Assembly (NCBI GenBank): GCA_008932965.1
Contig: WBXG01000051.1
Location: 1-13,020, forward strand
DNA length: 13,020 bases
Direction: 5' to 3'
From: Verrucomicrobiota bacterium
GTDB taxonomy: Bacteria > Verrucomicrobiota > Verrucomicrobiia > Chthoniobacterales > UBA6821
The position numbers and the translations under genes were made by a program. Shown here piece after piece: positions 1-13,020 of this stretch (position 1 is the stretch's first letter; each line of letters begins with the position of its first letter). Under the pieces are notes generated by a model. The model had not been told where the DNA came from, did no database searches, and saw only the letters and a list, made by a program, of their open reading frames with translations.

Positions 1-1171
1 AAACCAAATTGCTCTCCCTACTGATCTGGAATTTTCATCCCATTTTTCTGCTTCTGATTTAGCAACCCTTGTTCCTCATCTTGTTGAAGAGATCGCTCAA
101 GCCTCCATCGTTATTCTTGTTGGAGGACTTGGCAGTGGTTTTGCTTCAGTACTTCTTCCTCAAGTGGCTGCCTTGTGCAAAGCACAAAAAAAAATGACTC
201 TAGCCTGTGTCAGTCTTCCTTTTTCTTTTGAAGGAAAACACGCTCAATCAATCGCTACTCACTCTCTAGCTTTACTCGAAAAAGAATCTGATGGAATTCT
301 ACTTCTCGATAATGATCGTCTCTCTTCTCATGGGTCTTCTAAAACTGTATTAGGTGAAACATTTATTGCTTCAGATGAAGCTATGGATGCTGCTCTTCCT
401 GCACTCCTAACAATTTTATTCAATAAGGGGCCTGTTCGCATTACCCGTTCCCATTTTTTAAAAGCACTACAAGGTCAAGGTACTAGGAGCTGTTTTGGTT
501 ATGGTCAAGCAGCCGGCCCTAATCGGCTTCATGAAGCGCTCGAACGGACTTTGAAAAAACCACTTCTGGAGCGAGGACGCTCATTGGCAAAGGCTACTGA
601 TATTTTTCTCATTTTAAGAGGACCTAAGGATATTTCACTTGCAGAAGCCCAGGCAGCTATGCAGGAGATAGAGCGCTTAGCAGGACCGGATAGGGATATT
701 CAATTAAGTCTCAATGCAGAGGAGGAGGAAGGGGCCCCACTCCAAATATTTCTTTTAGCAACCATCAAAGAAGCGGCAGTGGCTTCTAAAAAATGTGAAC
801 CTTCTCCAGAAAGAGTATCTGATTTTTCACAAAAAGAAGTTTCCTCCAATACTCCTGCTCACCTTCTCGGTAAAACCAATATTTTAAAGCCATCGATTTC
901 TATTGCTCCCAGCCTCCCCAAGAGTGAGGAAAATAGTACTTCCGAGGAAAGCATCAAGGAGCTCTTTGATGAAGCCTTATATCAGACCGCTCTGGATTCC
1001 CAAGAGAGTTCTGTCACAAAGTCACCTATTCCACCTAAAAAAAAGCAGATGCAAGGAGCACTCAATCTCAAAGCCGTTCAGCGGGGACGTTTTGATAAAA
1101 GTGAACCGACAATTGTAGAGGGAGAGGATCTTGATACTCCAACCTATTTGAGGTTAGGTTTGAAGTTCTAA
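1..1171 (+). CDS. ftsZ: FtsZ-family (tubulin/FtsZ fold) cell-division protein homologue. It is 5'-partial because the start lies left of the window, and it is divergent with degenerate GTP-binding and hydrolysis motifs.
   Basis: Frame 2 (codons from nt 2) is open from the window edge to TAA at 1169-1171. The GTG at 164 used by the ORF track is an internal Val codon. By eye, the translation aligns without gaps to E. coli FtsZ from about the T3 loop onward:
- IVILVGGLGSGFASVLLPQVAALCK against FIAAGMGGGTGTGAAPVVAEVAK
- SLPFSFEGK against TKPFNFEGK
- LLLDNDRL against TIPNDKL
- KKPLLE against SSPLLE
A linker of about 130 aa rich in Ser, Pro, Lys and Glu follows. The C-terminus EGEDLDTPTYLRLGLKF resembles the conserved FtsZ C-terminal peptide (D-[IL]-P-x-[FY]-L-R). 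Confidence 0.75.
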   Translation, partial: NQIALPTDLEFSSHFSASDLATLVPHLVEEIAQASIVILVGGLGSGFASVLLPQVAALCKAQKKMTLACVSLPFSFEGKHAQSIATHSLALLEKESDGILLLDNDRLSSHGSSKTVLGETFIASDEAMDAALPALLTILFNKGPVRITRSHFLKALQGQGTRSCFGYGQAAGPNRLHEALERTLKKPLLERGRSLAKATDIFLILRGPKDISLAEAQAAMQEIERLAGPDRDIQLSLNAEEEEGAPLQIFLLATIKEAAVASKKCEPSPERVSDFSQKEVSSNTPAHLLGKTNILKPSISIAPSLPKSEENSTSEESIKELFDEALYQTALDSQESSVTKSPIPPKKKQMQGALNLKAVQRGRFDKSEPTIVEGEDLDTPTYLRLGLKF

Positions 1172-1178
1172 AGGCTAT

Positions 1179-1207
1179 CTTGAAAATGAATAAAATTGAT
1201 GTATTAC
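1179..1207 (+). promoter_or_regulatory. Candidate clpB promoter: cTTGAAA (-35), 16-nt spacer, TATTAC (-10).
   Basis: CTTGAAA at 1179-1185 matches both the sigma70 -35 (TTGACA, 5/6) and the E. coli sigma32 -35 core (CTTGAAA). TATTAC at 1202-1207 is a 4/6 match to the -10 consensus. No CCCCAT-type sigma32 -10 and no CIRCE element are visible. The site lies in the 101-bp ftsZ-clpB spacer. Confidence 0.25.
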
Positions 1208-1272
1208 GGCGTCGCTGTGATGCTCTAGTCTCCACCATAAACCAATAGGCTAATAACACTGAGGACTTATTT

Positions 1273-3849
1273 ATGAGACCCGATAAATTCACCGTTAAAA
1301 TGCAAGAGGCACTTCAGGGAGCGCTCGATAGCGCTTCTAAACTGGGGCAACAAGAGGTCAGCAATGATCATCTTTTGATTTCACTCTTAGAACAAGGAGA
1401 AGGACTGGTTCGCCCGTTATTAGATAAGATGGGAATTGATGTAGCCGCCTTAGTCTCGCAGATTGAATCACGCATTGCCTCTCAAGCACGTGTTCATGGG
1501 GGTTCACAGCCTTTTGTTGGAAATGAGCTACGCAAAACTATCGATCGAGCTGAGGAGGAGCAAGGGAAACTCAAAGACGAATTTCTGAGTGCAGAGCATT
1601 ATCTCTTAGCACTGAGTGAAGAAAAAATAGGCATTGGTAAAATTTTAAAAGAGCAGGGAGTCACGCGTGCTAAACTCATGCAAACCTTGGTCAAGGTGAG
1701 GGGAAGTCAGCGCGTCACCGATCAAAATCCAGAGGGAAAATATCAAACACTAGAAAAATATGGTCGTGATCTCACCGAGTTAGCACGCAAAGGAAAGATC
1801 GATCCTGTTATTGGACGTGATGAAGAAATTCGTCGTACCATGCAAGTGCTTTCACGTCGCACCAAAAACAATCCTGTCTTAATTGGTGAGCCTGGAGTTG
1901 GTAAAACAGCCATTGTAGAAGGATTGGCTCGCCGCATTATTAGTGGAGATGTGCCTGAGTCGCTCAAAAATAAAAAGGTTATCGCCATGGATATTGGATC
2001 GATGGTGGCAGGTGCTAAGTTTCGTGGAGAATTTGAAGATCGATTGAAAGCCTTTTTAAAAGAGGTCACCAGTTCTGAAGGGGAGATTATTCTTTTTATT
2101 GATGAGCTTCATACCATTGTTGGAGCTGGTGCTGCTGAGGGATCCATGGATGCTTCGAATCTGCTGAAGCCACAGCTTGCTCGAGGAGAATTACGTACCA
2201 TTGGGGCCACTACCCTCGATGAATATCGCAAATACATTGAAAAAGATGCTGCTTTAGAACGTCGTTTCCAACCTGTGATGGTCTTAGAGCCGACCGTTGA
2301 AGATACGATTGCCATTTTACGCGGTTTGAAGGAGCGTTATGAAATTCATCATGGTGTTCGTATCCAAGATGCTGCCTTGGTAGCAGCAGCACTCCTCTCA
2401 CATCGTTATATTTCTGATCGTTTTTTACCGGATAAGGCAGTTGATCTTATTGACGAAGCTGCTTCGCGCTTGAAGATGGAGCTAGAATCGATGCCCACCG
2501 AGATTGACCAGAACGAACGTGAAATGATGATGCTGGAGATGGAACGACAAGCACTACGAAAAGAAAAAGATGCTGCCAGTAAAGAACGTCTTGAGAAGCT
2601 TGAAAAAGAATTAGCAGAGGTCAAAGAAAAAACAATGACACTGAAAACACGATGGCTTCAAGAAAAAGAGGAGATCGGTAAATCACAAAAGTTCAATGAA
2701 GAGATTGAATCATTAAAAAATGAGCTTGCTACAGCACAACGAAGTGGAGATTTTGCCAAAGCAAGTGAAATTCAGTATGGTCGCATTCCTGAACTTTCTG
2801 CTCAACTAGAGGCTCATAATGAGCGTATGGCTCAGAAGGCAACGACCCAAAATCCTCTTTTACAAGAAGAAGTATCAGAGGAAGATATTGCTAAAGTGGT
2901 TTCTGTCTGGACAGGTATTCCTGTTTCAAATCTTCAAGAAGGAGAACGTCAAAAGCTAGTGAAGATGGAGGAGCGTTTGATGAAGCGTGTTGTAGGACAA
3001 GAGAAGGCAATTAAAGCAGTTTCTAATGCCGTTCGTCGTGCTAGAGCTGGACTACAAGAGGAAAACAGACCTATTGGATCTTTTATTTTCTTAGGTCCAA
3101 CAGGAGTTGGTAAAACAGAATTATCAAAGGCATTAGCAGAATTTCTCTTTGATGATGACCATGCAATGATTCGTCTCGATATGAGCGAGTATATGGAAAA
3201 ACATACTGTGGCACGGCTTATTGGAGCCCCTCCTGGCTATGTCGGCTATGATGAGGGAGGCCAGCTTACGGAGGCAGTGCGTCGCAAACCCTATTCTGTG
3301 ATTCTTTTTGATGAAGTTGAAAAAGCCCACGGTGATGTGTTTAATGTGCTGCTTCAAGTCCTCGATGATGGCCGTATTACTGATGGACAAGGACGAACCG
3401 TTGATTTCAAAAACTGTGTCATCATCATGACAAGTAATATTGGTAGTCAGTTCATTATGGAGGATTTGAAAGTCGAAGAAAGGAACCGTCGTGTGATGGA
3501 GTCCCTCCGAGGACATTTCCGACCAGAATTTTTGAATCGTATTGATGAGATCGTGATTTTTGATCGTCTTAGTGATCGTGATATTACCAAGATTATTGAT
3601 ATTCAGCTGGAGCGACTCATGCATCGCTTAGAAAAACAAAAACTCTCTCTTCAACTTTCTGAAAAAGCAAAGGTCTACCTTGCCAAGGAAGGGTATGATC
3701 CGGCCTATGGAGCTCGTCCTTTAAAACGAGTTATTCAACAAAAAATTTTAGATCCTTTGAGTATGGAAATTTTAGATGGGAAAATCAAAGAGGGAGATTC
3801 TATGGAAGGGGATCTAGTCAAAGGAGAACTTGTTTTTAAGAAAATCTAA
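1273..3849 (+). CDS. clpB: ATP-dependent chaperone/disaggregase ClpB (Hsp104/ClpB AAA+, two nucleotide-binding domains)
   Basis: The ORF encodes 858 aa and shows these motifs:
- Clp N-domain ([11 protein letters not shown])
- NBD1 Walker [10 protein letters not shown] and Walker B ILFIDELH
- long coiled-coil middle domain ([12 protein letters not shown]...[10 protein letters not shown]), which separates ClpB from ClpA/ClpC
- NBD2 Walker [10 protein letters not shown] and Walker [12 protein letters not shown]
- C-terminal GARPLKR sensor motif
GAGGA at 1261-1265 lies 7 nt upstream of the ATG and is the only clear SD in the window. Confidence 0.97.
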
Positions 3850-3892
3850 AAACTTAATGGCCCTTTAAGATCTTGGATCTCTGGTCTCTGAT

Positions 3893-3922
3893 TTGACATT
3901 TCTTGACTTTCTCCACTAGACT
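3893..3922 (+). promoter_or_regulatory. Candidate promoter for the Rpn-like gene: TTGACA, 18-nt spacer, TAGACT, with a tandem TTGAC(A)TTTC direct repeat.
   Basis: TTGACA at 3893-3898 is a perfect -35. TAGACT at 3917-3922 is a 4/6 match to the -10. TTGACATTTC (3893-3902) is followed immediately by TTGACTTTC (3903-3911). The implied transcription start lies within a few nt of the ATG at 3932, and no SD is visible, so the mRNA may be leaderless or have a very short leader. Confidence 0.3.
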
Positions 3923-3931
3923 TCCTGGCTT

Positions 3932-4804
3932 ATGCAACCAAAAAAGCTTGTTCAATTTGACTGGGCGATTAAGACGCTCCTGCGTCGCAAAGCGAATTTT
4001 CCGATCTTGGAGGGTTTTTTGTCCGAGTTACTTGGTACTGATGTCACCATCCAATCACTCCTTGAGAGTGAATCAAATAAGCAACATGCTAAGGACAAAT
4101 CAAATCGGGTCGATGTCTTTGCTAAGCTTGGTAATGGCGAGCAGGTTATTATCGAAGTGCAATGTGAGCGCCAGTGGGATTTTCTTTCGCGAATGTTATA
4201 TGGTGTTTCTAAAGTCGTTGTGGAGCATCTCCAAGAGGGGGAACCTTATGGCAATCTGCCCCGTGTTATTTCAGTCAATATTGTTTATTTCGATTTGGGC
4301 CATGGAGAAGATTACATCTATCATGGAACCACTGATTTTAAAGGTGTTCATAAGAAAGATCTGCTCGAGCTGAGTGCAAAAGAAAAAGAGCATTATCCAG
4401 CAAATATTGATAAGGTCGCTCATGTTTTTCCAGAGTACTACGTTCTCAAGGTCAGTGGTTTTGATTTGAAAATAAAAGATACGCTTGATGAGTGGGTCTA
4501 TGCTCTTAAAGAGTCCGAGGTCAAACCTGAATTCAAAGCCAGAGGAATTCACGAAGCCTCACGTACCCTTGCTCTGCTCAATCTTTCAGAGGAAGAGCGT
4601 TGCGCTTACGACCGCCACATTGGTGATATGAGGATTTCTAGGAGCACATTAGAATCTTCTTTTAGTGATGGAAAAGCTGAGGGAAAAGCTGAAGGTAAGG
4701 CCGAGGCCGTTTTAAACATGCATCAACTCGGTTTATCGACAACCGAAATTGCAAGGTTTATCAATCTCTCAGAGGATCAAGTCGAAACGATTTTAAAACC
4801 ATGA
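3932..4804 (+). CDS. Rpn/YhgA-like PD-(D/E)XK nuclease ('recombination-promoting nuclease/putative transposase', PDDEXK_2 / TIGR01784-type) with a DUF4351-like C-terminal tail
   Basis: The ORF encodes 290 aa. The N-terminal FDWAIKTLL...ILEGFLSELLG block is followed by the family's nuclease core DKSNRVDVFAKLGNGEQVIIEVQ, with putative D61, E75 and Q77 (D...E-x-Q variant of PD-(D/E)XK). The segment RMLYGVSKVVVEHLQEGEPYGNLPRVISVNIVYFDL comes next. The C-terminus has a (GKAE)x3 repeat and then a short helix-rich tail, LSTTEIARFINLSEDQVETIL. The family was recognised from memory of its consensus, not from a search. Confidence 0.85.
   Translation: MQPKKLVQFDWAIKTLLRRKANFPILEGFLSELLGTDVTIQSLLESESNKQHAKDKSNRVDVFAKLGNGEQVIIEVQCERQWDFLSRMLYGVSKVVVEHLQEGEPYGNLPRVISVNIVYFDLGHGEDYIYHGTTDFKGVHKKDLLELSAKEKEHYPANIDKVAHVFPEYYVLKVSGFDLKIKDTLDEWVYALKESEVKPEFKARGIHEASRTLALLNLSEEERCAYDRHIGDMRISRSTLESSFSDGKAEGKAEGKAEAVLNMHQLGLSTTEIARFINLSEDQVETILKP
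4670..4705 (+). repeat. Imperfect 12-bp tandem repeat x3 inside the Rpn-like CDS, encoding (Gly-Lys-Ala-Glu)x3
   Basis: The three units are GGAAAAGCTGAG, GGAAAAGCTGAA and GGTAAGGCCGAG, all in frame. Repeats of the type [E]G-x-x-EG are typical of the C-terminal region of Rpn-family proteins. Confidence 0.8.
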
Positions 4805-5841
4805 GTGATACCCTATTTTCTGAGGATCAACTCCGGGCTGCTCTTGATCAAGTTGCCTATCCTGGGTTTCGCCGAAGCATTCTCTCTTTTGGAATTGTTA
4901 AAGAAGTAGCCATTGAGGGAGGGCATGTGAAAGTGCAGCTACAACTTTCCACGACGGAAACGCATATTCCCACAATCTTAAAAAAAGAAATTCAAACAGT
5001 ACTTCAAACCATTCCTGGTGTGGAAAAGGTGACGGTACTCATCGATATCCAAGCTCCAGTAGCCTCCTTGAGTGCAGCTCCTATTCCTATTCCTGGAGTT
5101 GCTCATGTTATTGCGGTGGCGAGCGGTAAAGGGGGGGTTGGTAAATCGACCATGGCAGTTAATCTAGCGATTGCTCTGTCTCAATTAGGAGCAGCTGTTG
5201 GATTATGCGATTGTGATTTGTATGGTCCCAGTGTTGCTTTTTTATGTGGTACACAAGAGCGTCCAAGAGCCAATGAACAAGATAAGATTATACCTGTTTC
5301 TGTTCATGGTATTTCCATCATGTCGATGGGATTGCTTTTAGAGGGAGATGCTCCTGCTGTCCTTCGAGGACCAATGGTGAGTCGTTATACTCAACAATTT
5401 TTACGTCATGTTGCTTGGGGGACATTAGATTATTTAATTCTCGATTTACCTCCAGGGACGGGTGATATCCAACTAACCATTGTGCAAACCATTCCATTGT
5501 CAGGTGCGATTTTAGTTACCACGCCACAAGAAGTAGCACTTCTGGATGTGCGAAAAGCAGCCTCTATGTTTCAAAAAACAAATGTTCCATTACTTGGTAT
5601 CATTGAAAATATGAGCTATTTTCTTTCTCCCAGTGATGGGGTGAAACATGCTGTTTTTGGAACTGGTGGAGGAGCACGAGAAGCGGCCCATTTAGGAATC
5701 CCCTTCCTTGGGGAGGTTCCACTAGAGATGGCTTTAAGGGCCTCTGGCGATGCTGGAGTTCCTTTTTTGATCGATCCAAAGATAACTGAAGCTGGAGAGG
5801 TTTTAAAAAAAGTCGCGCATTCTATCAAAATAAAATTTTAA
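4801..5841 (+). CDS. mrp: Mrp/NBP35/ApbC-family P-loop ATPase (putative Fe-S cluster carrier) with an N-terminal DUF59/MIP18-like domain; the CxxC motif is absent
   Basis: The ORF encodes 346 aa. The N-terminal segment LRAALDQVAYPGFRRSILSFGIVKEV is DUF59-like. The deviant Walker A is VASGKGGVGKST. Other family motifs are DLYGPS, LDLPPGTGD, VTTPQEVAL and ENMSYF...VFGTGGG. The ATG at 4801 overlaps the upstream TGA at 4802-4804 (ATGA), which suggests translational coupling. Confidence 0.9.
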   Translation: MSDTLFSEDQLRAALDQVAYPGFRRSILSFGIVKEVAIEGGHVKVQLQLSTTETHIPTILKKEIQTVLQTIPGVEKVTVLIDIQAPVASLSAAPIPIPGVAHVIAVASGKGGVGKSTMAVNLAIALSQLGAAVGLCDCDLYGPSVAFLCGTQERPRANEQDKIIPVSVHGISIMSMGLLLEGDAPAVLRGPMVSRYTQQFLRHVAWGTLDYLILDLPPGTGDIQLTIVQTIPLSGAILVTTPQEVALLDVRKAASMFQKTNVPLLGIIENMSYFLSPSDGVKHAVFGTGGGAREAAHLGIPFLGEVPLEMALRASGDAGVPFLIDPKITEAGEVLKKVAHSIKIKF

Positions 5842-5941
5842 GGGAATAAATTTCTTAAAAAGTTTTTTTTTGTATTTTACAGATTCCCTTGGGGCAGACT
5901 CTCAGATACAAATCTTCCTCTGTGTTTCATAGTATTGGGGC

Positions 5942-5969
5942 AAAAAAAATGCTTCAGCTTGATGAAGCA
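5942..5969 (-). terminator. Intrinsic-terminator-like hairpin plus U8 read on the minus strand, with no minus-strand gene feeding it (orphan)
   Basis: On the + strand, A8 (5942-5949) is followed by a 7-bp stem TGCTTCA (5950-5956), a 6-nt loop and TGAAGCA (5963-5969). On the minus strand this reads as stem-loop followed by TTTTTTTT. The + strand has no T-run after the stem. Confidence 0.35.
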
Positions 5970-6040
5970 GATGTAACAATCACTTCAATTTTCTCACTCC
6001 TACTTCCTTTTTTTAGGTTTAACAATTTCCGTGTCTCTTA

Positions 6041-6080
6041 ATGCTTGCTTGGATTGCCTAGAAGCATGTCCCCTTTTTTT
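6041..6080 (+). terminator. Weak hairpin plus T7 directly abutting the probable serA start; possible terminator or attenuator, or an unstructured U-rich initiation region
   Basis: ATGCTT (6041-6046) pairs with AAGCAT (6062-6067) across a 15-nt loop. GTCCCC and TTTTTTT (6074-6080) follow, and then the ATG at 6081. The stem is short and the loop large, so it is thermodynamically weak. Confidence 0.2.
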
Positions 6081-7679
6081 ATGAAAACTCTCCCTAAGAT
6101 ATTTGTTGCTGATTCTATTTCTAGTAAAGGTGTTGAGGCACTAAGTTCAGATGGATTGTTTGAAGTTATTGTGAAAATAGGTCTTCAGGAGGCAGAACTA
6201 ATCCAAGCTATCCAAGGATGTGATGCACTCATTGTACGGAGCCAAACAAAGGTTACAAAGAAAGTGATTGAAGCGGCAACGTCGCTTAAAGTTATCGGTC
6301 GAGCTGGTGTAGGTATTGACAATGTGGATGTGGAGGTTGCTACCAAGCATGGTATTATCGTGATGAATGCTCCTGGTGGGAATACAATCTCTACTGCTGA
6401 ACATGCTTTCACTCTTCTTTTAAGTACAGCGCGTGCCATTCCCCAAGCTCATACAAGCATGAAGGCAGGAAAGTGGGATCGGAAGAAATTTGAAGGAGTC
6501 GAGCTTCATACAAAAACACTTGGCATCCTTGGCATGGGTCGTATTGGTACTGAAGTAGCACGACGTGCTATTGCCTTTGGAATGAAAGTGCTTGTCTTTG
6601 ATCCATACCTTTCTGCAAGTAAGGCCCGCTCTTTGCAAATAGAGCTTGTTGAGCAACTCCATGAGCTCTTACCACAAGTTGATTTTATCACAGTTCATAT
6701 GCCACTTACTGACGAGACACGATATATGATTGGACGCAAGGAACTCCCTCTATTAAAACGAGGAGTGCGTATTATTAACTGTGCACGTGGAGGGCTTATT
6801 GATGAAACTATTTTAGCAGAGGGACTCTCTAGTGGGCAGATTGCAGGAGCTGCCTTAGATGTTTTTGAAGAGGAGCCGTTATCTCAAAACTCTGAGCTTC
6901 GTTCGATCGACTCGTTAGTTTTAACCCCGCATCTTGGGGCATCAACGGCAGAAGCTCAGGAGATGGTTGGTATCGAGATTGCTGAATCTATTCGACTTGC
7001 TCTTTTAAAAGGAGAGATCAGAAACTCTGTTAACATGCCTAATATTGATGAAAAGACGTTAGCTTTCATCGAGCCATGGATGATGTTAGCAAATAGTCTG
7101 GGACAGTTTTTAGCTTCCATTGGACCTAAGCGTGCAGAGAAAATTTCTATTCGATACAGTGGACGTATTACAGAACAAGATTTAACGGTGGTGACAAGAG
7201 CCTTTCTTACTGGGTTTCTAAGCCATATTCATGGACCTGAAGTAAACAGAGTCAATGTTTCTAGTTTTATAAAAGCTTCGGGTCTTGAAGTTATTGAGGC
7301 TCGCCAGAGTGGAGCTGGAGAGTTTACGGATTTAATCGAGTTTCAAGTAGAAGCTGGTGCAGAAAAAGCAAGCGTAGGTGGAACATTTTATGGTTCTAAA
7401 CCACGTATTGTTACTGTAAATGATCGTTTTGTAGAGGGACACCCTGCTGGGGTTGTCCTTTTGTTAGAAAATAAAGATCAACCTGGCATTGTTGGGCATC
7501 TCGGATCACTTTTTGGGGAGAATGATATCAATATTGCAAATATGTCCCTGAGCCGAAATGAATCTCAGGGAACAGCATTGGTCTTAATGAATCTTGATTC
7601 AGCTCCTCAACCAATGCTTGTCGAAAAACTCCGATCAGATACCAATATTCTATCAGTTCAAATCATTCATTTTTCTTAA
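6081..7679 (+). CDS. serA: D-3-phosphoglycerate dehydrogenase, long form with C-terminal ASB and ACT regulatory domains
   Basis: Motifs seen:
- GRAGVGIDNVD
- Rossmann motif GILGMGRIGTEVARRA
- catalytic-region motifs INCARGGLIDE and LTPHLGASTAEAQ
- C-terminal ACT-like segment VVLLLENKDQPGIVGHLGSLFGENDINIANMSL
The start is ambiguous. The ORF track uses TTG at 6045, and in-frame ATGs lie at 6066 and 6081. I chose 6081 because MKTLPKIFVADSIS matches the usual SerA N-terminus (M-K-x-[IV]-L-[IV]-x-D). None of the three candidates has an SD. Confidence 0.92.
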   Translation: MKTLPKIFVADSISSKGVEALSSDGLFEVIVKIGLQEAELIQAIQGCDALIVRSQTKVTKKVIEAATSLKVIGRAGVGIDNVDVEVATKHGIIVMNAPGGNTISTAEHAFTLLLSTARAIPQAHTSMKAGKWDRKKFEGVELHTKTLGILGMGRIGTEVARRAIAFGMKVLVFDPYLSASKARSLQIELVEQLHELLPQVDFITVHMPLTDETRYMIGRKELPLLKRGVRIINCARGGLIDETILAEGLSSGQIAGAALDVFEEEPLSQNSELRSIDSLVLTPHLGASTAEAQEMVGIEIAESIRLALLKGEIRNSVNMPNIDEKTLAFIEPWMMLANSLGQFLASIGPKRAEKISIRYSGRITEQDLTVVTRAFLTGFLSHIHGPEVNRVNVSSFIKASGLEVIEARQSGAGEFTDLIEFQVEAGAEKASVGGTFYGSKPRIVTVNDRFVEGHPAGVVLLLENKDQPGIVGHLGSLFGENDINIANMSLSRNESQGTALVLMNLDSAPQPMLVEKLRSDTNILSVQIIHFS

Positions 7680-7704
7680 CCCTCTAAAATTGAAATATAC
7701 CCTT

Positions 7705-8751
7705 ATGCCTAAAAATCATAAATTTATCCTTGCAGGAGATCTCGGAGGAACGAATTTTCGTATTGCACTTTTTCGAATAGTTAATGGACCCAATGGAACA
7801 TTAAAGAAAATTCGCTCCGAACGTCTTTCTAGCACACGATTCAATTCCTTCCCTGAGGCTGTGAGTAGTTTTCTTGAGAAAGAAGAGGTTCCAGGTAATA
7901 TTATGACCGCTTGTTTCGGTGTTCCTGGTCCCAATATTGCAGGGGTTGTCCATGCCACAAATTTAAATTGGCTTATTGATGTTAGTACATTAACTAATGT
8001 CCTGGGTATCCCTCGTGTTCAGATCCTTAATGATCTTGAGGCCATGGCCTTCGGTGTAGGAGAGTTACGTCATAGTGATTTTCTCTTATTACAAGCAGGT
8101 GCTGGTTCCCGTGCTGGAAATCAATGTGTGATTGCCCCTGGAACAGGTTTAGGTGAAGCAGGTCTTTTTTGGGATGGTCATCGACATCATCCATGGGCTA
8201 GTGAGGGAGGACATGCTGACTTTGCTCCAACGGATGATGTGCAGGCTGCCCTATTAGAATTTCTCCATAAAGAATATGGACGTGTGAGCTGCGAACGTGT
8301 CATTGCAGGAATTGGGCTTAACAATATCTATCGTTTTTTAAGAGATACAGGCCGTGGTAAGGAAAAACCTGCCATTGCCGAAAAGATGCTTGTGGGAGAT
8401 GTGAATGCCATTATTGACGAGCATTCACGAAACGGTTCGTGTGGTCTCTGCCGTGATACAATGGATATTTTTATTCGAATATTGGGGGCAGAAGCTGGTA
8501 ACCTTGCCCTTAAAACAATGGCTACAGGAGGCGTTTTCTTAGGCGGTGGTATCCCTCCAAGAATCTTAGAGCATTTACGAGGTCCCCTCTTTTTAGAGTC
8601 CTTTCTTAACAAAGGTCGAATGCGTCTTCTTTTGGAGTCGATGCCATTAAGCGTCATTCTAAATGATGATGCAGCACTACTAGGATCAGCTCGTTACGCA
8701 GCTCGCATGATGAGTTCATTGAGAAAGACCATACCACCAAAGATGTATTAA
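7705..8751 (+). CDS. glk: Glucokinase (Glk family, ROK-unrelated bacterial glucokinase)
   Basis: The sequence resembles E. coli Glk along its whole length: ILAGDLGGTNFRIAL (ATP-binding), ILNDLEAMA, APGTGLGEA, SEGGHADFAP, ERVIAGIGLNNIYRFL and GGVFLGGGIPPRILE. The ORF-track start at 7594 would overlap serA by 86 nt and add a non-homologous extension. The ATG at 7705 lies 25 nt after the serA stop. Confidence 0.9.
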   Translation: MPKNHKFILAGDLGGTNFRIALFRIVNGPNGTLKKIRSERLSSTRFNSFPEAVSSFLEKEEVPGNIMTACFGVPGPNIAGVVHATNLNWLIDVSTLTNVLGIPRVQILNDLEAMAFGVGELRHSDFLLLQAGAGSRAGNQCVIAPGTGLGEAGLFWDGHRHHPWASEGGHADFAPTDDVQAALLEFLHKEYGRVSCERVIAGIGLNNIYRFLRDTGRGKEKPAIAEKMLVGDVNAIIDEHSRNGSCGLCRDTMDIFIRILGAEAGNLALKTMATGGVFLGGGIPPRILEHLRGPLFLESFLNKGRMRLLLESMPLSVILNDDAALLGSARYAARMMSSLRKTIPPKMY

Positions 8752-8852
8752 TCAGGGGTTGATCGGTTAAAATCAAAATCCCTAAATAGTCTTTTTAGGA
8801 ATAAACACCCTCCTTATAAGAGAAATGAGGGAACAAGAAGACTAATTCGGCC

Positions 8853-8882
8853 AGGACCACAATCGTTAGTCCTCCTTTTTTT
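8853..8882 (+). terminator. Weak candidate rho-independent terminator downstream of glk
   Basis: AGGAC (8853-8857) pairs with GTCCT (8869-8873) across an 11-nt loop. CC and TTTTTTT (8876-8882) follow. The stem is only 5 bp. Confidence 0.3.
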
Positions 8883-8955
8883 AGTGAGCTTTGTACGCCA
8901 CCTCATGACACTTCAGTATGAAATATCCGGGACATCTTGTTAGAAAAAATATTTC

Positions 8956-9537
8956 ATGAAGTTACTCTCTTTATTTTTCCTTATTACTTTTTCTTCTCTT
9001 CATGCAGAAGAGAGAACTATTGTAAAAAATTCTTTACGTTCCTCTTTACCTTTAGGAATTGCACAAGAAAAAGGAGAAATTTTTCCACAAATTCTCGAGA
9101 ATAAATCGAATAAACCGATTTCAATTCGAATTTCTCTCTCTCAGCAACGTCTGTTCGTTGATGTAGGAGATAAATGTGCTATCATATCTCCAATTTCCTC
9201 AGGGCGTAGTCCAGGTTGGACCCCAGTTGGTTTTTTTAAAATTTTAGAAAAAGATGAAGTTCACCGTTCTAATATCTACGGGAATTTTGTGGACCGAGAC
9301 AATCGAGTCATTAGAAGAGGGGTTGATGCTCGGCTCGATTCTGCTCCAACTGGTACTCATTTCAAGGGGGCCTCAATGCTTTATTTTATGAAAATTACAG
9401 AAAAAGGGGTAGGAATGCATGTGGGCATTCTTCCTGGTTACCCAGCATCGCATGGATGCATCCGCCTACCCTTAGAGATGGCAAAATCTATTTTTAAAAC
9501 GGTTCCTCTCAATACTCCAGTGAGAGTTGAAGAATAA
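8956..9537 (+). CDS. Secreted L,D-transpeptidase family protein (YkuD domain)
   Basis: The ORF encodes 193 aa. The N-terminal signal peptide is MKLLSLFFLITFSSLHA/EE. The YkuD domain begins ISLSQQRLFV and ends with the catalytic signature MHVGILPGYPASHGCIRLP (H...SHGCIR). Confidence 0.85.
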   Translation: MKLLSLFFLITFSSLHAEERTIVKNSLRSSLPLGIAQEKGEIFPQILENKSNKPISIRISLSQQRLFVDVGDKCAIISPISSGRSPGWTPVGFFKILEKDEVHRSNIYGNFVDRDNRVIRRGVDARLDSAPTGTHFKGASMLYFMKITEKGVGMHVGILPGYPASHGCIRLPLEMAKSIFKTVPLNTPVRVEE

Positions 9538-9639
9538 TAAGAATTTTCTTTTTTGTTCTCAGAACCGATCTCTATGATTCAAAAGATATTTCACACTGAT
9601 CGTGACCTGGAAGCCGTAAAGCTATATTTGGTGAGGTAG

Positions 9640-9645
9640 TATAAT
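9640..9645 (+). promoter_or_regulatory. Perfect TATAAT -10 hexamer in the ldt-sdhC spacer; possible sdhCAB promoter
   Basis: TATAAT lies at 9640-9645. The best -35 at 17-nt spacing (TAAAGC, 9617-9622) is poor, and there is no TG extension. If the element is used, the leader before the sdhC GTG would be about 100 nt. Confidence 0.25.
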
Positions 9646-9753
9646 TTAATGAAAATGCCTTTTCAATTCACTCGTAGAGGCATAGGCTACTGTTCCAAAA
9701 ATGAAGTTATCTATTACGAGTTGTAGCAGAAAAATTTTCTCCATTTTCTACTA

Positions 9754-10431
9754 GTGGAAAAATCATCTTTTTTAAACTCCTCCATTGGGCGCAAGTGGAT
9801 TGTTGCAGTCACGGGAATTCTCCTTATTGGCTTTATTCTCATTCATCTTCTGGGGAATCTTTCCATTTTCCTTGGGCCAGAAATCATGAATGCCTATGCA
9901 GCACGCCTCCATCAGCTTGGAATCTTGCTTTGGATAGCACGGATAGGACTTCTTGCTGTGGCAGGATTACATATTTTTTTCACGATGGCTCTTTGGCGTG
10001 AAAATCATCAGGCCTCACCTCAGAAATATGCAGTAAAACAATCGCTCGAAACAACCCTCTATGCTCGTTCCATGAGACTTTCCGGGTTGGTTGTTCTTGG
10101 TTTTGTATTGTTTCATTTGGCTCAATTTACGTGGAAATGGGTGACTCCAGAATACAAGGAATGGATCGATTCTTTGGGACAACATGATGTCTATCGAATG
10201 CTTGTGGCTGCGTTTGGGAATCCCTGGGTTACGGGATTTTATCTTATTAGTGTGGCATTTTTAGCAATGCACCTGAGTCATGGTATAGGAAGTCTTTTTC
10301 AAACATTTGGGTTAAGTAATAAAAAACTGCGCCTTCGCTTTCAATATGCTGGGCTCATTGCTGCATGGGCTTTTTTCCTAGGGTATGCCTCCATTCCAGC
10401 TGCTGTTTTTTTAAAACTCCTTCCTCATTAA
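9754..10431 (+). CDS. sdhC: Succinate dehydrogenase / fumarate reductase cytochrome b subunit, type B (single dihaem subunit, b558 family)
   Basis: The ORF encodes 225 aa. It has about five hydrophobic helices, each carrying a His at a position suited to haem ligation (H31, H73, H121, H173). It lies immediately upstream of sdhA with a 10-nt gap. The GTG start at 9754 is the only start codon available after the in-frame TAG at 9724-9726 that keeps helix 1 intact. Confidence 0.85.
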
Positions 10432-10441
10432 TCCTCTTCTC

Positions 10442-12358
10442 ATGATTGCCCTTGATGCAAAAATACCACCTGGTCCTCTTGAGGGGAAATGGAGACGTTT
10501 TAAAGAAAATGTCCCGCTTATTGGACCTGCCAATAAACGGAAATTCAACATCATCGTTGTAGGTTCAGGCCTTGCTGGCGCCTCTGCTGCTGTTACCCTG
10601 GCAGAGCAAGGGTATCATGTTGATTGTTTTTGCTTTCATGATTCTCCGCGTAGAGCTCATAGCATTGCAGCACAAGGGGGCATTAACGCTGCTAAGAATT
10701 ATCAAAATGATGGTGACAGTGTTTGGCGGCTTTTTTATGACACGATTAAAGGGGGGGATTTTCGTTCCCGCGAAGCCAATGTTTACCGGCTTGCAGAGGT
10801 TTCTCAAAGCATCATTGACCAATGTGTCTCGCAGGGTGTTCCTTTCGCTCGAGAATATGGGGGGCAGCTTGCTAACCGCTCTTTTGGTGGGGCTCAAGTC
10901 TCTCGCACCTTTTATGCACGTGGTCAAACGGGACAGCAGTTGCTTCTAGGCGCCTATTCCTCGCTGAATCATGAAATCAAAAATGGTCGTGTGACCATGC
11001 ATGCTAATAGTGAACTGCTTGATCTTGTGGTAGTAGAGGGTCATGCCAAAGGAATTATTGTTCGCAATCTCATCTCTGGAGAGATCACACGTCACGCTGC
11101 AGATGCTGTGATCTTAGCCACGGGAGGTTATAGTAACGCCTATTATCTCTCCACTAATGCTCGCGGTTGTAATGCCACAGCAATTTGGAGAGCTTACAAA
11201 CAGGGGGCCCTTTTTGCTAATCCCTGTTTTACTCAAATTCACCCGACCTGCATTCCTGTAGGGGGAGATTATCAAGCTAAGTTGACCTTAATGTCAGAGT
11301 CATTACGTAATGATGGACGTGTTTGGGTTCCTAAGAAAAAAGGAGATCAACGTGCTCCTCAGGATATTCCTGAAGAAGAAAGGGATTATTATTTAGAAAG
11401 AAAATATCCTGCTTATGGAAATTTAGCCCCACGAGATATCTCTTCGCGAAGCGCTAAGGAGGTCTGTGATGAGGGCCGAGGAGTGGGACCCAGTGGGCTT
11501 GGTGTTTACCTCGATTTTCAAGATGCCTTAGAGCGGCTAGGAAAAGAGACCATTCAAGAACGTTACGGTAATCTTTTTGAAATGTATGAAAATATTACTG
11601 GGGAGAATGCCTACACCCGTCCTATGCGTATTTTTCCAGCCCTTCATTATACAATGGGGGGGCTTTGGGTCGACTATCACTTAATGAGCAATCTTCCCGG
11701 ACTCTTCGTTCTTGGGGAGGCTAATTTCTCTGATCATGGTGCCAACCGCTTAGGAGCAAGCGCACTCATGCAAGGATTGGCAGATGGTTATTTTGTCATT
11801 CCTTACACTCTTGGTGCCTATCTCTCATCACAATTTGGAAAGAAGGTTAAGACAACTCAGCCTGAATTTGAGGAGGCAGAAAAGAGAGTGGGTGCGCGTT
11901 TAAATCAACTTTTAGAAGTGAAAGGCTCTCTCTCTTCTACGCACTTTCACAGAGAATTAGGGATCCTACTTTGGGAAAAATGTGGAATGGAGCGTAGTGC
12001 AAGCAGTCTTCAAGAAGCCCTCCATGAAATTCCCAAATTGCGAAAACGTTTCTGGAATGAAGTGAGTATTCCAGGTTCCGGAGCCACTTTAAACAAAGCT
12101 CTAGAGGCAGCTGGGCGTGTTGCCGATTTTCTTGAGCTTGGGGAGCTCATGTGCCGGGATGCCCTGATACGTGAGGAATCATGTGGTGGTCATTTTCGCT
12201 CTGAGTATCAGTCATCTGAGGGAGAGGCTGTGAGAAATGATGAACTCTTTTCCTGTGTTCAAGCCTGGAATTATGGGGGTGAAGGGAAGGAGCCAACCTT
12301 GATTCAGGAACCTCTGAACTACGAGTTTGTGCATCCCTCAACCCGTAATTATAAATGA
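10442..12358 (+). CDS. sdhA: Succinate dehydrogenase / fumarate reductase flavoprotein subunit (B. subtilis-type subgroup)
   Basis: The ORF encodes 638 aa and shows these motifs:
- FAD dinucleotide fold [14 protein letters not shown]
- covalent-FAD histidine motif [14 protein letters not shown] (His73)
- ATGGY
- HPT
- active-site region [10 protein letters not shown]
- [20 protein letters not shown]. Confidence 0.96.
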
Positions 12359-12405
12359 AAAAACGATTCTTTTTTAATGCACTTCCAACAGCATTATTCA
12401 ATTAG

Positions 12406-12424
12406 ACTCCTGAAGTATAGGAGT
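12406..12424 (+). other. Short hairpin in the 108-bp sdhA-sdhB spacer
   Basis: ACTCCT (12406-12411) pairs with AGGAGT (12419-12424) across a 7-nt loop. The nearest T-run (TTTTTT) starts about 10 nt downstream, so this is not a canonical terminator. Confidence 0.2.
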
Positions 12425-12466
12425 TGAGTATTTCATTTTTTATCTTCAATTATTATTTGCATCACA

Positions 12467-13020
12467 ATGAATTTTCATCTTCGAATTTGGAGGCAAGAGG
12501 ATCCACAGGCTACTGGTTCTTTCCAAGAAATAGAGGCCTGTGACATCCCTGCAGAGGCTTCCTTTCTAGAAATGCTCGATATTGTAAATAATCGTTTGAT
12601 CGAGGAAAAAAAAATCCCTGTAGCTTTTGATTCTGATTGTCGCGAGGGTATTTGTGGAACATGTAGTATGGTGATTAATGGAGTTCCTCAAGGCCCAGGG
12701 CGAGGGGCTGCCTGCCAAGTCTATATGCGCAGCTTTGAAAATGGTGCTTCCATTACGATCGAACCTTTTCGAGTAAAGGCTTTCCCTATCCTTAAAGACC
12801 TTATCGTTAAACGGGCGGCCTATGATCGTATTATGCAAGCAGCCGGTTTTATTACAGAGCATACTGGTGGAGCTCCCGATGCTGCAACGACCTTAATTAG
12901 TAAAAAAATAGCTGATCATGCTATGGATGCTGCTGCTTGCATCGGCTGTGGAGCTTGTGCTGCAGCATGTCCCAACAGTTCTGCAATGCTTTTTGTGGGT
13001 GCCAAAGTCACACATTTAAG
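12467..13020 (+). CDS. sdhB: Succinate dehydrogenase / fumarate reductase iron-sulfur subunit, 3'-partial (runs off the window)
   Basis: This gene is not in the supplied ORF track because no stop codon falls inside the window. My translation from the ATG at 12467 is MNFHLRIWRQEDPQATGSFQEIEACDIPAEASFLEMLDIVNNRLIEEKKIPVAFDSDCREGICGTCSMVINGVPQGPGRGAACQVYMRSF...AMDAAACIGCGACAAACPNSSAMLFVGAKVTHL. It shows [2Fe-2S] ligands in CREGICGTC...C and a [4Fe-4S] motif in CIGCGACAAAC. It closely resembles Bacteroides/Bacillus-type FrdB/SdhB. Confidence 0.9.
   Translation, partial: MNFHLRIWRQEDPQATGSFQEIEACDIPAEASFLEMLDIVNNRLIEEKKIPVAFDSDCREGICGTCSMVINGVPQGPGRGAACQVYMRSFENGASITIEPFRVKAFPILKDLIVKRAAYDRIMQAAGFITEHTGGAPDAATTLISKKIADHAMDAAACIGCGACAAACPNSSAMLFVGAKVTHL

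What the first reader, a model, noticed from the sequence alone, without database searches (positions are those of the whole stretch)
1..1171. FtsZ homologue with degenerate T3, T4 and T7 motifs but an intact FtsZ-type C-terminal docking peptide
A gapless by-eye alignment to E. coli FtsZ places the window's protein across the nucleotide-binding core, yet the diagnostic motifs are not conserved.
- T4 tubulin signature: G-G-G-T-G-T-G (E. coli 104-110) is replaced by G-S-G-F-A-S-V, from ...VGGLGSGFASVLLP, nt 122-160.
- T3 loop: the GLGAGANPEVG region corresponds to DLEFSSHFSAS (nt about 23-55).
- T7 synergy loop: N207-x-D209-x-x-D212, needed for GTP hydrolysis in the polymer, reads R-I-T-R-S-H (nt 437-454).

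Fold markers are retained: PFSFEG, NDRL, PLLE, a long disordered linker and a terminal DLDTPTYLRL peptide of the kind that binds FtsA/ZipA-type anchors.

This pattern suggests a pseudo-GTPase FtsZ, either a non-hydrolysing or non-binding paralogue or a highly derived sole FtsZ, that can still dock to divisome partners. The N-terminal T1 loop lies outside the window.
Basis: partly seen in the sequence, partly recalled or inferred. Interest (0 to 1): 0.7.

Follow-up and report, generated by a model that had tools for sequence, protein, structure and literature searches.

The report
FtsZ with decayed GTP site
The cell-division protein FtsZ of one uncultured freshwater group of Verrucomicrobia has lost the sequence motifs that normally bind and split GTP, yet it stays under selection and keeps its tail for docking to FtsA, so it may show how bacteria begin to do without a working FtsZ motor.

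Summary
Window 2-1171 (+) encodes the last 389 residues of a 450-residue FtsZ homologue.

- **Register confirmed.** Profile alignments place GSGFASV opposite GGGTGTG (T4) and RITRSH opposite NVDFAD (T7). The T3 loop is deleted.
- **It is the cell-division ftsZ, not a stray paralogue.** In a relative of the same genus and in 75 of 80 other species of the order Chthoniobacterales, the gene follows ftsA in murCB-ddl-ftsQ-ftsA-ftsZ.
- **The decay is stepwise.** Udaeobacter, Terrimicrobiaceae and Chthoniobacter keep GLGAGGDPE and GGGTGSG. A middle clade has lost GLGA and carries GGETGS and KITRxD. The low-GC clade that includes the window varies freely at the phosphate-contacting positions, and D212 is H, D or N.
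- **The gene is functional.** dN/dS is 0.10-0.17 in the globular domains and 0.56 in the linker. dN is 0 over the last 42 codons. AlphaFold2 gives a confident FtsZ fold.

I read it as the derived FtsZ orthologue of this lineage. It probably no longer hydrolyses GTP and may not bind it, and it would act as a scaffold tethered by FtsA. GTP binding was not tested, and I could not check for a second, canonical FtsZ elsewhere in these genomes. I found no prior description. It is a new variant of a known kind.

The parts
2..1171 (+). ftsZ homologue: the last 389 codons plus the stop. The first 61 codons lie upstream of the window.
   Evidence: ORF and translation. Pfam Tubulin and FtsZ_C hits. PDB FtsZ hits. 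The full-length 450-residue P0001 comes from a near-identical contig.
23..55 (+). Region that replaces the T3 loop (DLEFSSHFSAS). The canonical GLGAGxxPE is absent.
   Evidence: MAFFT alignment. The profile HMM cannot align this stretch. GLGA is deleted in clades B and C.
131..151 (+). T4 equivalent: GSGFASV in place of GGGTG[ST]G (E. coli 105-111).
   Evidence: Alignments. Position 107 has 2.5 bits of entropy in the window clade, the 95th percentile of core columns.
218..235 (+). T5 motif PFSFEG, retained.
   Evidence: P134, F135, F137, E138 and G139 are invariant in all three clades.
311..322 (+). T6 motif NDRL. N165 is retained.
   Evidence: N165 is invariant. D166 becomes N in 72% of the window clade.
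437..454 (+). T7 equivalent: RITRSH in place of NVDFAD. There are basic residues at 207 and 210 and no acidic residue at 212.
   Evidence: Alignments. In the window clade R207 is 97% and R210 94% conserved, and position 212 is H 58%, D 30%, N 5%.
776..1042 (+). Disordered linker, fast-evolving.
   Evidence: pLDDT is below 50 for P0001 residues 320-442. dN/dS is 0.56. Identity across the clade is 13-25%.
1043..1168 (+). Conserved C-terminal block, ...QGALNLKAVQRGRFDKSEPTIVEGEDLDTPTYLRLGLKF. It contains the FtsA/ZipA-type docking peptide DLDTPTYLRL at 1127-1156.
   Evidence: dN = 0 at dS = 0.57. R422-G447 are invariant across 22 sequences. The motif is phylum-wide.
1273..3849 (+). clpB, the downstream neighbour. 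It follows ftsZ in many Chthoniobacterales and serves as a synteny marker only.
   Evidence: Pfam. Synteny table.

Best explanation
**What it is.** The window holds most of the dcw-cluster ftsZ of a low-GC, uncultured lineage of the order Chthoniobacterales (Verrucomicrobiota). This orthologue has lost, in two steps, the parts of the tubulin/FtsZ active site that hold and split the phosphates.
- Step 1, shared with a large sister clade: a deletion in the T3 loop, G107->E in the T4 signature, and a T7 loop rebuilt as K/R-I-T-R.
- Step 2, in the window clade: free drift at T4 positions 107, 108 and 111 and at R142, and replacement of the last T7 acid, D212, by H, N or D.
- The two-domain FtsZ fold, the disordered linker and the C-terminal FtsA-docking peptide are kept under purifying selection.

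**How it most likely works (inferred, not shown).** The protein no longer hydrolyses GTP and probably no longer binds it productively. It would therefore not treadmill. It would act as a scaffold or adaptor tethered to the membrane by FtsA, which is highly conserved and keeps a membrane-targeting tail. The scaffold would mark or organise the division site, while septal peptidoglycan synthesis does the work. If it still forms filaments, the subunit interface is probably held together without nucleotide. One possibility is contact between the newly conserved T7 arginines and the acidic residues that now line the former phosphate site.
For: **Shown**
- The register of T4 and T7 is confirmed by HMMER and by a profile, and T3 cannot be aligned.
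- The AF2 core has pLDDT above 90, and the best PDB matches are all FtsZ, with TM 0.73-0.82.
- The gene order murCB-ddl-ftsQ-ftsA-ftsZ holds in a congener and in 75 of 80 Chthoniobacterales species. No second FtsZ lies within +-10 kb.
- Clades B and C are monophyletic inside the order's FtsZ tree.
- Motif table across 80 species and 192 sequences:
  - clade A has GLGAGGDPE, GGGTGSG, R142 and D212;
  - clade B has the GLGA deletion, GGETGS, K142 and KITRxD;
  - clade C has variable T4, A/T/V at 142 and H/D/N at 212.
- Of 50 sites that are near-invariant in clade A, the 15 that exceed 1 bit of entropy in clade C mostly cluster in T3, H3, T4, R142/Q145 and T6.
- dN/dS is 0.17 (N-domain), 0.10 (C-domain), 0.56 (linker) and 0 (last 42 codons).
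- FtsA is 82-91% identical within the window clade, against 56-67% for the FtsZ core. FtsA keeps an amphipathic tail.
- TIGR00065 scores fall from 297 to 230-234, then 117-119, then 89-107 bits.

**Established knowledge (my recollection, not re-read here)**
- E. coli G105S and T108A in GGGTGTG impair GTP binding or GTPase activity.
- T7 D212 is needed for hydrolysis.
Against: - No biochemistry exists for any member.
- T1 G-N-A-G-x-N, T2 N-N-D, N165, F182, E138 and D186 stay invariant even in the window clade. Most of these contact the base or ribose. These residues may be structural, but they could also mean that a ligand is still bound.
- Clade B keeps D212 in 100% of sequences and a conserved GGETGS, so step 1 may have remodelled the site rather than killed it.
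- A canonical FtsZ elsewhere in these genomes was not excluded.
- The salt-bridge interface idea rests on one phylogenetic event and has no independent replication.
Confidence: 0.55

Rival explanations
1. **Remodelled but still nucleotide-binding FtsZ.** The pocket still holds GTP or GDP, or another nucleotide, through the retained base and ribose contacts and T1/T2. The nucleotide would serve as a structural, non-hydrolysed cofactor. This would resemble the non-exchangeable GTP of alpha-tubulin, which faces a lysine in the beta-tubulin T7 loop.
For: - N24, N43, D45, E138, N165, F182 and D186 are invariant or nearly so in all clades.
- T7 has gained conserved basic residues at 207 and 210. They could contact phosphates as beta-tubulin K254 does (textbook knowledge).
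- Clade B keeps a conserved GGETGS and D212.
Against: - The T3 loop is deleted.
- In the window clade T4 positions 107, 108 and 111 and R142 vary freely, with F, V, C or L where T108 should be. That is hard to reconcile with a conserved phosphate cradle.
- An acidic residue at 107 in clade B would repel phosphate unless a metal bridges them.
Confidence: 0.22
2. **Subfunctionalised copy.** A canonical FtsZ encoded elsewhere in the genome does the division work. The dcw copy would have become a regulator or adaptor that competes for FtsA through its tail.
For: - The C-terminal peptide is under the strongest constraint while the core evolves faster than FtsA. That pattern is expected of a protein whose main job is docking.
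Against: - The gene is the positional and phylogenetic orthologue of ftsZ.
- No second homologue lies within +-10 kb in any of the 25 clade B/C loci.
- No MAG appears twice among the 80 loci found through the phylum-type C-terminal motif.
- FtsZ is not reported as duplicated in Verrucomicrobiota in the papers read (PMC12283558, PMC5147048).
Confidence: 0.13
3. **Decaying gene.** A relic on its way to loss, with no remaining function.
For: - It is the fastest-evolving gene at this end of the cluster.
- Overall dN/dS is 0.22, against 0.025-0.10 for most neighbours.
- The lineage has dropped to 41-44% GC.
Against: - The reading frame is intact in more than 130 distinct sequences of clades B and C.
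- dN/dS is 0.10-0.17 in the globular domains and 0 in the tail.
- New residues have become conserved: GPV[RK]I[TN]R and NRLHEALE.
- The predicted fold is confident.
Confidence: 0.03

Closest known systems
Canonical verrucomicrobial FtsZ, for example Verrucomicrobium spinosum (essential; GGGTGSG; PMC1845146, PMC12283558), and the Udaeobacter, Terrimicrobiaceae and Chthoniobacter FtsZs seen here
   Same: - Same fold.
- Same place in the dcw cluster, after ftsA.
- Same phylum-type C-terminal block RGRF[ED]KSEPTI..GEDLD.PT[FY]LR.
- Same T1 variant G-N-A-G within the order.
- Arginine at position 207 instead of N207, as in the common verrucomicrobial T7, R-I-G-x-D-D.
   Different: - T3 GLGAGGDPE is deleted.
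- T4 GGGTGSG is replaced by GSGFASV.
- R142 is lost.
- The T7 acids are lost.
- TIGR00065 scores 97 bits, against 230-297 for the canonical relatives.
Thaumarchaeal FtsZ, Nitrosopumilus maritimus Nmar_1262 (PMC3684127)
   Same: A natural FtsZ homologue whose tubulin signature is degenerate (AGKAGSA). It did not polymerise when expressed in yeast.
   Different: - Per the paper's abstract, Thaumarchaeota have both FtsZ and the Cdv (cell division) machinery; the title of its reference 37 (Busiek & Margolin 2011) says the thaumarchaeon chooses Cdv for cytokinesis. No alternative division system is known for these bacteria.
- That protein is not paired with ftsA in a dcw cluster.
- The window protein keeps a bacterial FtsA-docking peptide and sits next to a highly conserved ftsA.
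Engineered GTPase-deficient E. coli FtsZ mutants: G105S (ftsZ84), T108A, D209A, D212A/N/G
   Same: The window protein carries substitutions at the same positions (106, 108, 109, 111, 209, 212). PMC3684127 summarises that T7 mutations disrupt polymerisation but not GTP binding.
   Different: - The engineered proteins are single laboratory mutations that are defective or lethal in E. coli.
- Here many changes are combined and fixed, and they have been maintained by selection across a whole lineage.
FtsZ-like families FtsZl-1 and FtsZl-2 (Makarova and Koonin 2010, PMC2875224)
   Same: Divergent members of the tubulin/FtsZ superfamily.
   Different: - According to the abstract, one of those families is linked to genes for a von Willebrand A domain protein, a distinct GTPase and OmpA-family proteins, and the other is confined to Proteobacteria.
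- The window gene is a dcw-cluster ftsZ with an FtsZ_C domain and a docking peptide.
Beta-tubulin T7 loop facing the non-hydrolysed GTP of alpha-tubulin (textbook knowledge)
   Same: A basic residue replaces the catalytic acid in T7, which makes that subunit interface non-hydrolytic.
   Different: Tubulin keeps an intact GGGTGSG and T3 and does bind GTP at that site. Here the phosphate cradle itself is degraded.

Membership tests
Bacterial cell-division FtsZ | Two-domain tubulin/FtsZ fold (PF00091 plus PF12327) | tested here: met
   For the window fragment PF00091 scores 46.3 bits (cut-off 33) and PF12327 31.6 bits (cut-off 27). For full-length P0001 they score 50.3 and 29.9. The AF2 core has pLDDT above 90, and the top 50 PDB matches are all FtsZ.
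Bacterial cell-division FtsZ | Score above the curated equivalog threshold of NCBIfam TIGR00065 (295.2 bits) | tested here: not met
   The window fragment scores 78.7 bits and full-length P0001 96.9 bits. Udaeobacter scores 296.7, Terrimicrobiaceae 234.5 and Chthoniobacter 230.3. NCBI names the clade B/C proteins 'hypothetical protein'.
Bacterial cell-division FtsZ | Tubulin signature G-G-G-T-G-[ST]-G in loop T4 | tested here: not met
   GSGFASV is in register. The window clade shows many different strings at this place.
Bacterial cell-division FtsZ | T3 loop G-x-G-x-G-x-x-P, which senses the gamma-phosphate | tested here: not met
   GLGA is deleted in clades B and C, and the remainder is unalignable in the window protein.
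Bacterial cell-division FtsZ | T7 loop with a catalytic acid (E. coli D212; N-x-D-x-x-D) | tested here: not met
   The loop reads RITRSH. Position 212 is H 58%, D 30%, N 5% in the window clade, but D in 94-100% of clades A and B.
Bacterial cell-division FtsZ | Disordered linker followed by a conserved C-terminal peptide (D-[IL]-P-x-[FY]-L-R type) that docks to FtsA or ZipA | tested here: met
   GEDLDTPTYLRLG is present. dN = 0 over the last 42 codons. The positions are invariant. The linker has pLDDT below 50. Actual binding to FtsA was not tested.
Bacterial cell-division FtsZ | Location at the end of the dcw cluster, after ftsQ-ftsA | tested here: met
   75 of 80 Chthoniobacterales loci show ftsA directly upstream; in the other five the contig holds no upstream DNA, or only the 3' end of ftsZ. 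In the window's own genus a 680-residue ORF is inserted between ftsA and ftsZ. The window itself starts inside the gene.
Bacterial cell-division FtsZ | GTP binding, GTP hydrolysis, and GTP-dependent polymerisation and treadmilling | not testable with these tools
   These are sequence-based inferences only.
Bacterial cell-division FtsZ | Being the only or principal FtsZ of the genome | not tested
Only +-10 kb around each gene could be read.
FtsZl-1 / FtsZl-2 (Makarova and Koonin 2010) | Genomic link to genes for a von Willebrand A protein, a distinct GTPase and OmpA-family proteins in one family, or restriction to Proteobacteria in the other (abstract of PMC2875224) | tested here: not met
   The neighbours are murCB, ddl, ftsQ, ftsA and clpB. 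The lineage is Verrucomicrobiota.

The most novel reading that the evidence does not exclude
A widespread, mostly freshwater lineage of Verrucomicrobiota (clades B and C; more than 1000 protein clusters in public data) divides with a single FtsZ that can no longer bind or hydrolyse GTP. GTPase-driven treadmilling would then be naturally dispensable in these bacteria. They would represent a living intermediate on the road to the FtsZ-less division seen in the related phyla Planctomycetota and Chlamydiota.
Probability: 0.4. Interest if true: 0.85.

Novelty: new variant of a known kind. Interest (0 to 1): 0.68.

Why it matters
FtsZ's GTPase cycle drives treadmilling, and the field regards that cycle as central to bacterial division. 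Laboratory mutants at the positions changed here are defective or lethal in E. coli.

[quoted passage not shown] Their sister phyla Planctomycetota and Chlamydiota have lost FtsZ altogether, and how that loss happened is an open question (PMC5147048).

This lineage offers a graded natural series within one order: a canonical site, then a remodelled site, then a degenerate site. Gene position stays the same throughout, and FtsA stays intact and highly conserved. That makes three questions directly testable with recombinant proteins:
- What is the minimal job of FtsZ?
- Is the docking tail enough?
- Which changes come first when a lineage frees itself from the GTPase?

There is also a practical consequence. 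These proteins fail the NCBI FtsZ model and are labelled hypothetical, so the genomes may appear to lack ftsZ in automated surveys.

Tried and rejected
1. **Shifted alignment as an artefact: rejected.** phmmer, MAFFT and a clade-specific profile all agree.
2. **Pseudogene: rejected.** Shown by dN/dS and by more than 130 intact homologues.
3. **The 680-residue ORF between ftsA and ftsZ as the 'real' FtsZ: rejected.** It has no Pfam or PDB hit and is not tubulin-like.
4. **Anchoring clade B to the complete genome of Candidatus Xiphinematobacter: no result.** I searched with the protein of the MAG 'Xiphi-315'. No Xiphinematobacter protein appeared among the best 120. The two Xiphinematobacter papers say nothing specific about FtsZ.
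5. **Looking for a second FtsZ in the same genomes: not possible.** Only the +-10 kb flanks were checked, and they were negative.
6. **Pilhofer et al. 2008 (PMC2347405), the main older survey of verrucomicrobial dcw genes: not held in the library.**
7. **Literature searches.** 'FtsZ' plus 'Chthoniobacterales' and 'FtsZ' plus 'pseudo-GTPase' both returned nothing.
8. **tRNA and Rfam scans of the window: nothing found.**
9. **Terminator and promoter scan between ftsZ and clpB.** It gave only chance-level consensus matches.
10. **Inspecting the modelled pocket: not possible.** Model coordinates are not exposed.
Full report
**1. What is in the window**

Frame 2 of the + strand is open from nt 2 to the stop at 1169-1171 and runs off the 5' end. 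The 389-residue product hits Pfam Tubulin/FtsZ GTPase (46.3 bits) and FtsZ_C (31.6 bits), both above their gathering cut-offs. It hits dozens of solved FtsZ structures, with E values down to 3e-20. It reaches only 78.7 bits on the NCBI FtsZ equivalog model TIGR00065, whose cut-off is 295.2.

A near-identical contig, with 6 differences in 1170 nt, supplies the full 450-residue protein P0001 with an intact N-terminus.

**2.

Yes.
- HMMER's alignment to M. tuberculosis FtsZ puts GLGSGFASV opposite GEGGGTGTG and RITRSH opposite NVDFAD.
- MAFFT with E. coli FtsZ gives the same result.
- I built a profile from 55 canonical FtsZs of the same order plus E. coli. It keeps the same register for T4 and T7. 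It cannot align the T3 stretch of P0001 at all, and the match breaks into two domains around it.

Three corrections are needed.
- GGGTGTG is E. coli residues 105-111.
- The string VGGLGSGFASVLLP starts at nt 119.
- N207 and D209 are replaced in most verrucomicrobial-type FtsZs. These commonly read R-I-G-x-D-[DE], even with perfect T3 and T4, though a minority keep NVDFAD-like loops. The lineage-specific event in T7 is therefore the loss of the acids at 211/212 and the gain of arginines.
- T1, which lies outside the window, reads GVGNAGGN in P0001. G-N-A-G is the commonest form in the order, including members with canonical T3 and T4, though some such as Udaeobacter read G-G-A-G.

**3. Whose gene is it, and is it the real ftsZ?**

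The best homologues are all from MAGs (genomes assembled from metagenomes) of Chthoniobacterales/'Spartobacteria' in the phylum Verrucomicrobiota. Many come from lakes.

A congener at 83% protein identity has the gene order murC-murB fusion, ddl, ftsQ, ftsA, a 680-residue unknown ORF, then this gene, then clpB. I fetched 80 species of the order and located each gene with phmmer. murCB-ddl-ftsQ-ftsA-ftsZ is conserved throughout: ftsA sits directly upstream in 75 of the 80, and the other five contigs hold no upstream DNA. clpB often comes next. No second FtsZ homologue lies within +-10 kb.

A neighbour-joining tree of the core domain places the window clade (C) and a larger sister clade (B) together, nested inside the order's FtsZs. 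The gene is therefore the positional and phylogenetic orthologue of ftsZ, not an old paralogue such as FtsZl-1 or FtsZl-2 (PMC2875224).

**4. A stepwise decay**

The table summarises the motif states of the three clades.

| Feature | Clade A (55 sequences) | Clade B (101 sequences) | Clade C (36 sequences, includes the window) |
|---|---|---|---|
| Members | Udaeobacter, Terrimicrobiaceae, Chthoniobacter | includes UBA6821 and 'Xiphi-315' | low-GC clade |
| T3 | GLGAGGDPE, invariant | GLGA deleted, G-D-P kept | G-D-P remnant gone |
| T4 | GGGT[GA]SG | G107->E (81%), G111->F (90%) | position 107 the most variable of those examined (2.5 bits, 95th percentile of core columns); position 108 is T, F, V, C or L |
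| Residue 142 | R, invariant | K | A, T or V |
| D166 | D, invariant | D in 95% | N in 72% |
| T7 | D212 in 94% | K-I-T-R-x-D, D212 in 100% | position 212 is H 58%, D 30%, N 5% |
| TIGR00065 score (bits) | 297 (Udaeobacter), 230-234 | 117-119 | 89-107 |

Of the 50 core sites that are nearly invariant in clade A, the 15 that exceed 1 bit of entropy in clade C mostly lie in T3, the start of H3, T4, R142/Q145 and T6. All of these surround the phosphate side of the pocket and the upper polymer interface.

By contrast, T1, T2 (N-N-D), PFxFEG, N165, F182 and D186 stay invariant.

I also searched one representative per 50%-identity cluster of 1.84 billion proteins. Among the 150 best, only the few clusters of clades B and C lack T3 and GGGT. 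The others with the T3-T4 region present have an essentially canonical T3 and T4, allowing single substitutions.

**5. Is it still a working gene?**

Yes.
- Between two congeners (dS about 0.45), dN/dS is 0.17 in the N-domain, 0.10 in the C-domain and 0.56 in the linker. dN is zero over the last 42 codons at dS = 0.57.
- Most neighbouring housekeeping genes give 0.025-0.10. The core is therefore constrained, but more loosely than usual.
- Within the window clade FtsA is 82-91% identical. The FtsZ core is only 56-67% identical and its tail 85-92%.
- FtsA keeps an amphipathic C-terminal tail.
- AlphaFold2 with a 22-sequence alignment predicts residues 15-319 with pLDDT mostly above 90 and a disordered segment at 320-442.
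- Foldseek finds only FtsZ structures at the top, with TM 0.73-0.82 over about 305 columns.
- New residues have become conserved in clades B and C: GPV[KR]I[TN]R in T7 and NRLHEALE after it.

**6. Most likely mechanism**

What is shown: the phosphate cradle (T3, T4, R142) and the catalytic T7 acid are gone or unconstrained. The fold and the tail are constrained. The partner FtsA is next door and highly conserved.

What is inferred: the protein cannot hydrolyse GTP and probably does not bind it productively. It therefore cannot treadmill. It would serve as an FtsA-tethered scaffold or adaptor for the divisome.

A more speculative step concerns filament formation. If filaments still form, the interface may be independent of nucleotide. 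The T7 arginines of one subunit might pair with the acidic residues (E/D71, E/D73, E107) that now occupy the former phosphate site of the next subunit.

The main rival is a remodelled pocket that still holds a structural nucleotide, in the manner of the alpha/beta-tubulin interface. The invariant T2 and the invariant base and ribose contacts keep that rival alive, especially for clade B.

A second rival is a canonical FtsZ elsewhere in the genome.

**7. Comparison with what is known**

V. spinosum FtsZ has GGGTGSG and is essential (PMC1845146, PMC12283558). The 2025 paper concludes that Verrucomicrobiota divide canonically, with classical peptidoglycan and FtsZ.

No paper in the library mentions FtsZ together with Chthoniobacterales or 'pseudo-GTPase'.

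The nearest precedent is the thaumarchaeal FtsZ of Nitrosopumilus. It has AGKAGSA in place of GGGTGTG and does not polymerise in yeast (PMC3684127). Thaumarchaeota also have the Cdv (cell division) machinery, and that protein has no FtsA-type docking context.

I therefore rate this a new variant of a known kind.

**8. Limits**

- All members are uncultured.
- There is no biochemistry.
- Whole-genome FtsZ content is unknown.
- The tree is distance-based.
- Model coordinates could not be inspected.

Noticed in passing
L001 3-1043; L002 7900-9942; L002 1088-1813 (-): A 680-residue ORF is wedged between ftsA and ftsZ only in the window's own genus (L001-L003); the other loci that carry ftsA upstream show no such ORF. 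It has a hydrophobic, signal-like N-terminus and no Pfam or PDB match. Its first ~100 residues resemble a 241-residue ORF upstream of murCB on the other strand. dN/dS is 0.28.
   Followed up: partly
window 3932-4804: A gene of the PD-(D/E)XK 'transposase' family (PF12784) sits between clpB and the mrp/apbC-like ATPase. It is 94% identical between congeners, with dN/dS 0.07. It looks like a fixed, selected gene rather than an active mobile element.
   Followed up: partly
window 1-13020 compared with loci L002-L068: Loci of the window clade are 41-44% GC. Clade B and canonical Chthoniobacterales loci are 52-59% GC. The final step of FtsZ motif decay coincides with a marked fall in GC content, which may reflect genome streamlining or a host-associated lifestyle.
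   Followed up: no
window 186-194 and 1037-1044: Homopolymer runs A9 and A8 lie inside the ftsZ coding sequence and are conserved in L001 and L002. They are potential slippage sites, but no variant lengths were seen.
   Followed up: partly
proteins P0169-P0314: Most verrucomicrobial-type FtsZs have a T7 loop R-I-G-x-D-[DE] in place of N-V-D-F-A-D. Nearly all share the C-terminal block RGRF[ED]KSEPTI..GEDLD.PTFLR, which extends well beyond the usual docking peptide. The function of the RGRF-KSEPTI part is unknown.
   Followed up: partly
proteins P0004, P0011, P0017, P0019, P0033, P0038, P0105, P0151: NCBI annotates these clade B and C FtsZs as 'hypothetical protein' because they score 89-119 bits on TIGR00065 (cut-off 295). 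Automated surveys, and marker-gene sets that use this model, would count ftsZ as missing in these genomes.
   Followed up: partly
L002 2015-4582: A murC-murB fusion gene (855 residues) heads this end of the cluster in these loci. The same fusion is reported as essential in V. spinosum (PMC12283558).
   Followed up: no
window 12566-12862 (-): A 98-residue ORF on the minus strand, downstream of the succinate dehydrogenase/fumarate reductase flavoprotein gene, has no Pfam hit.
   Followed up: no
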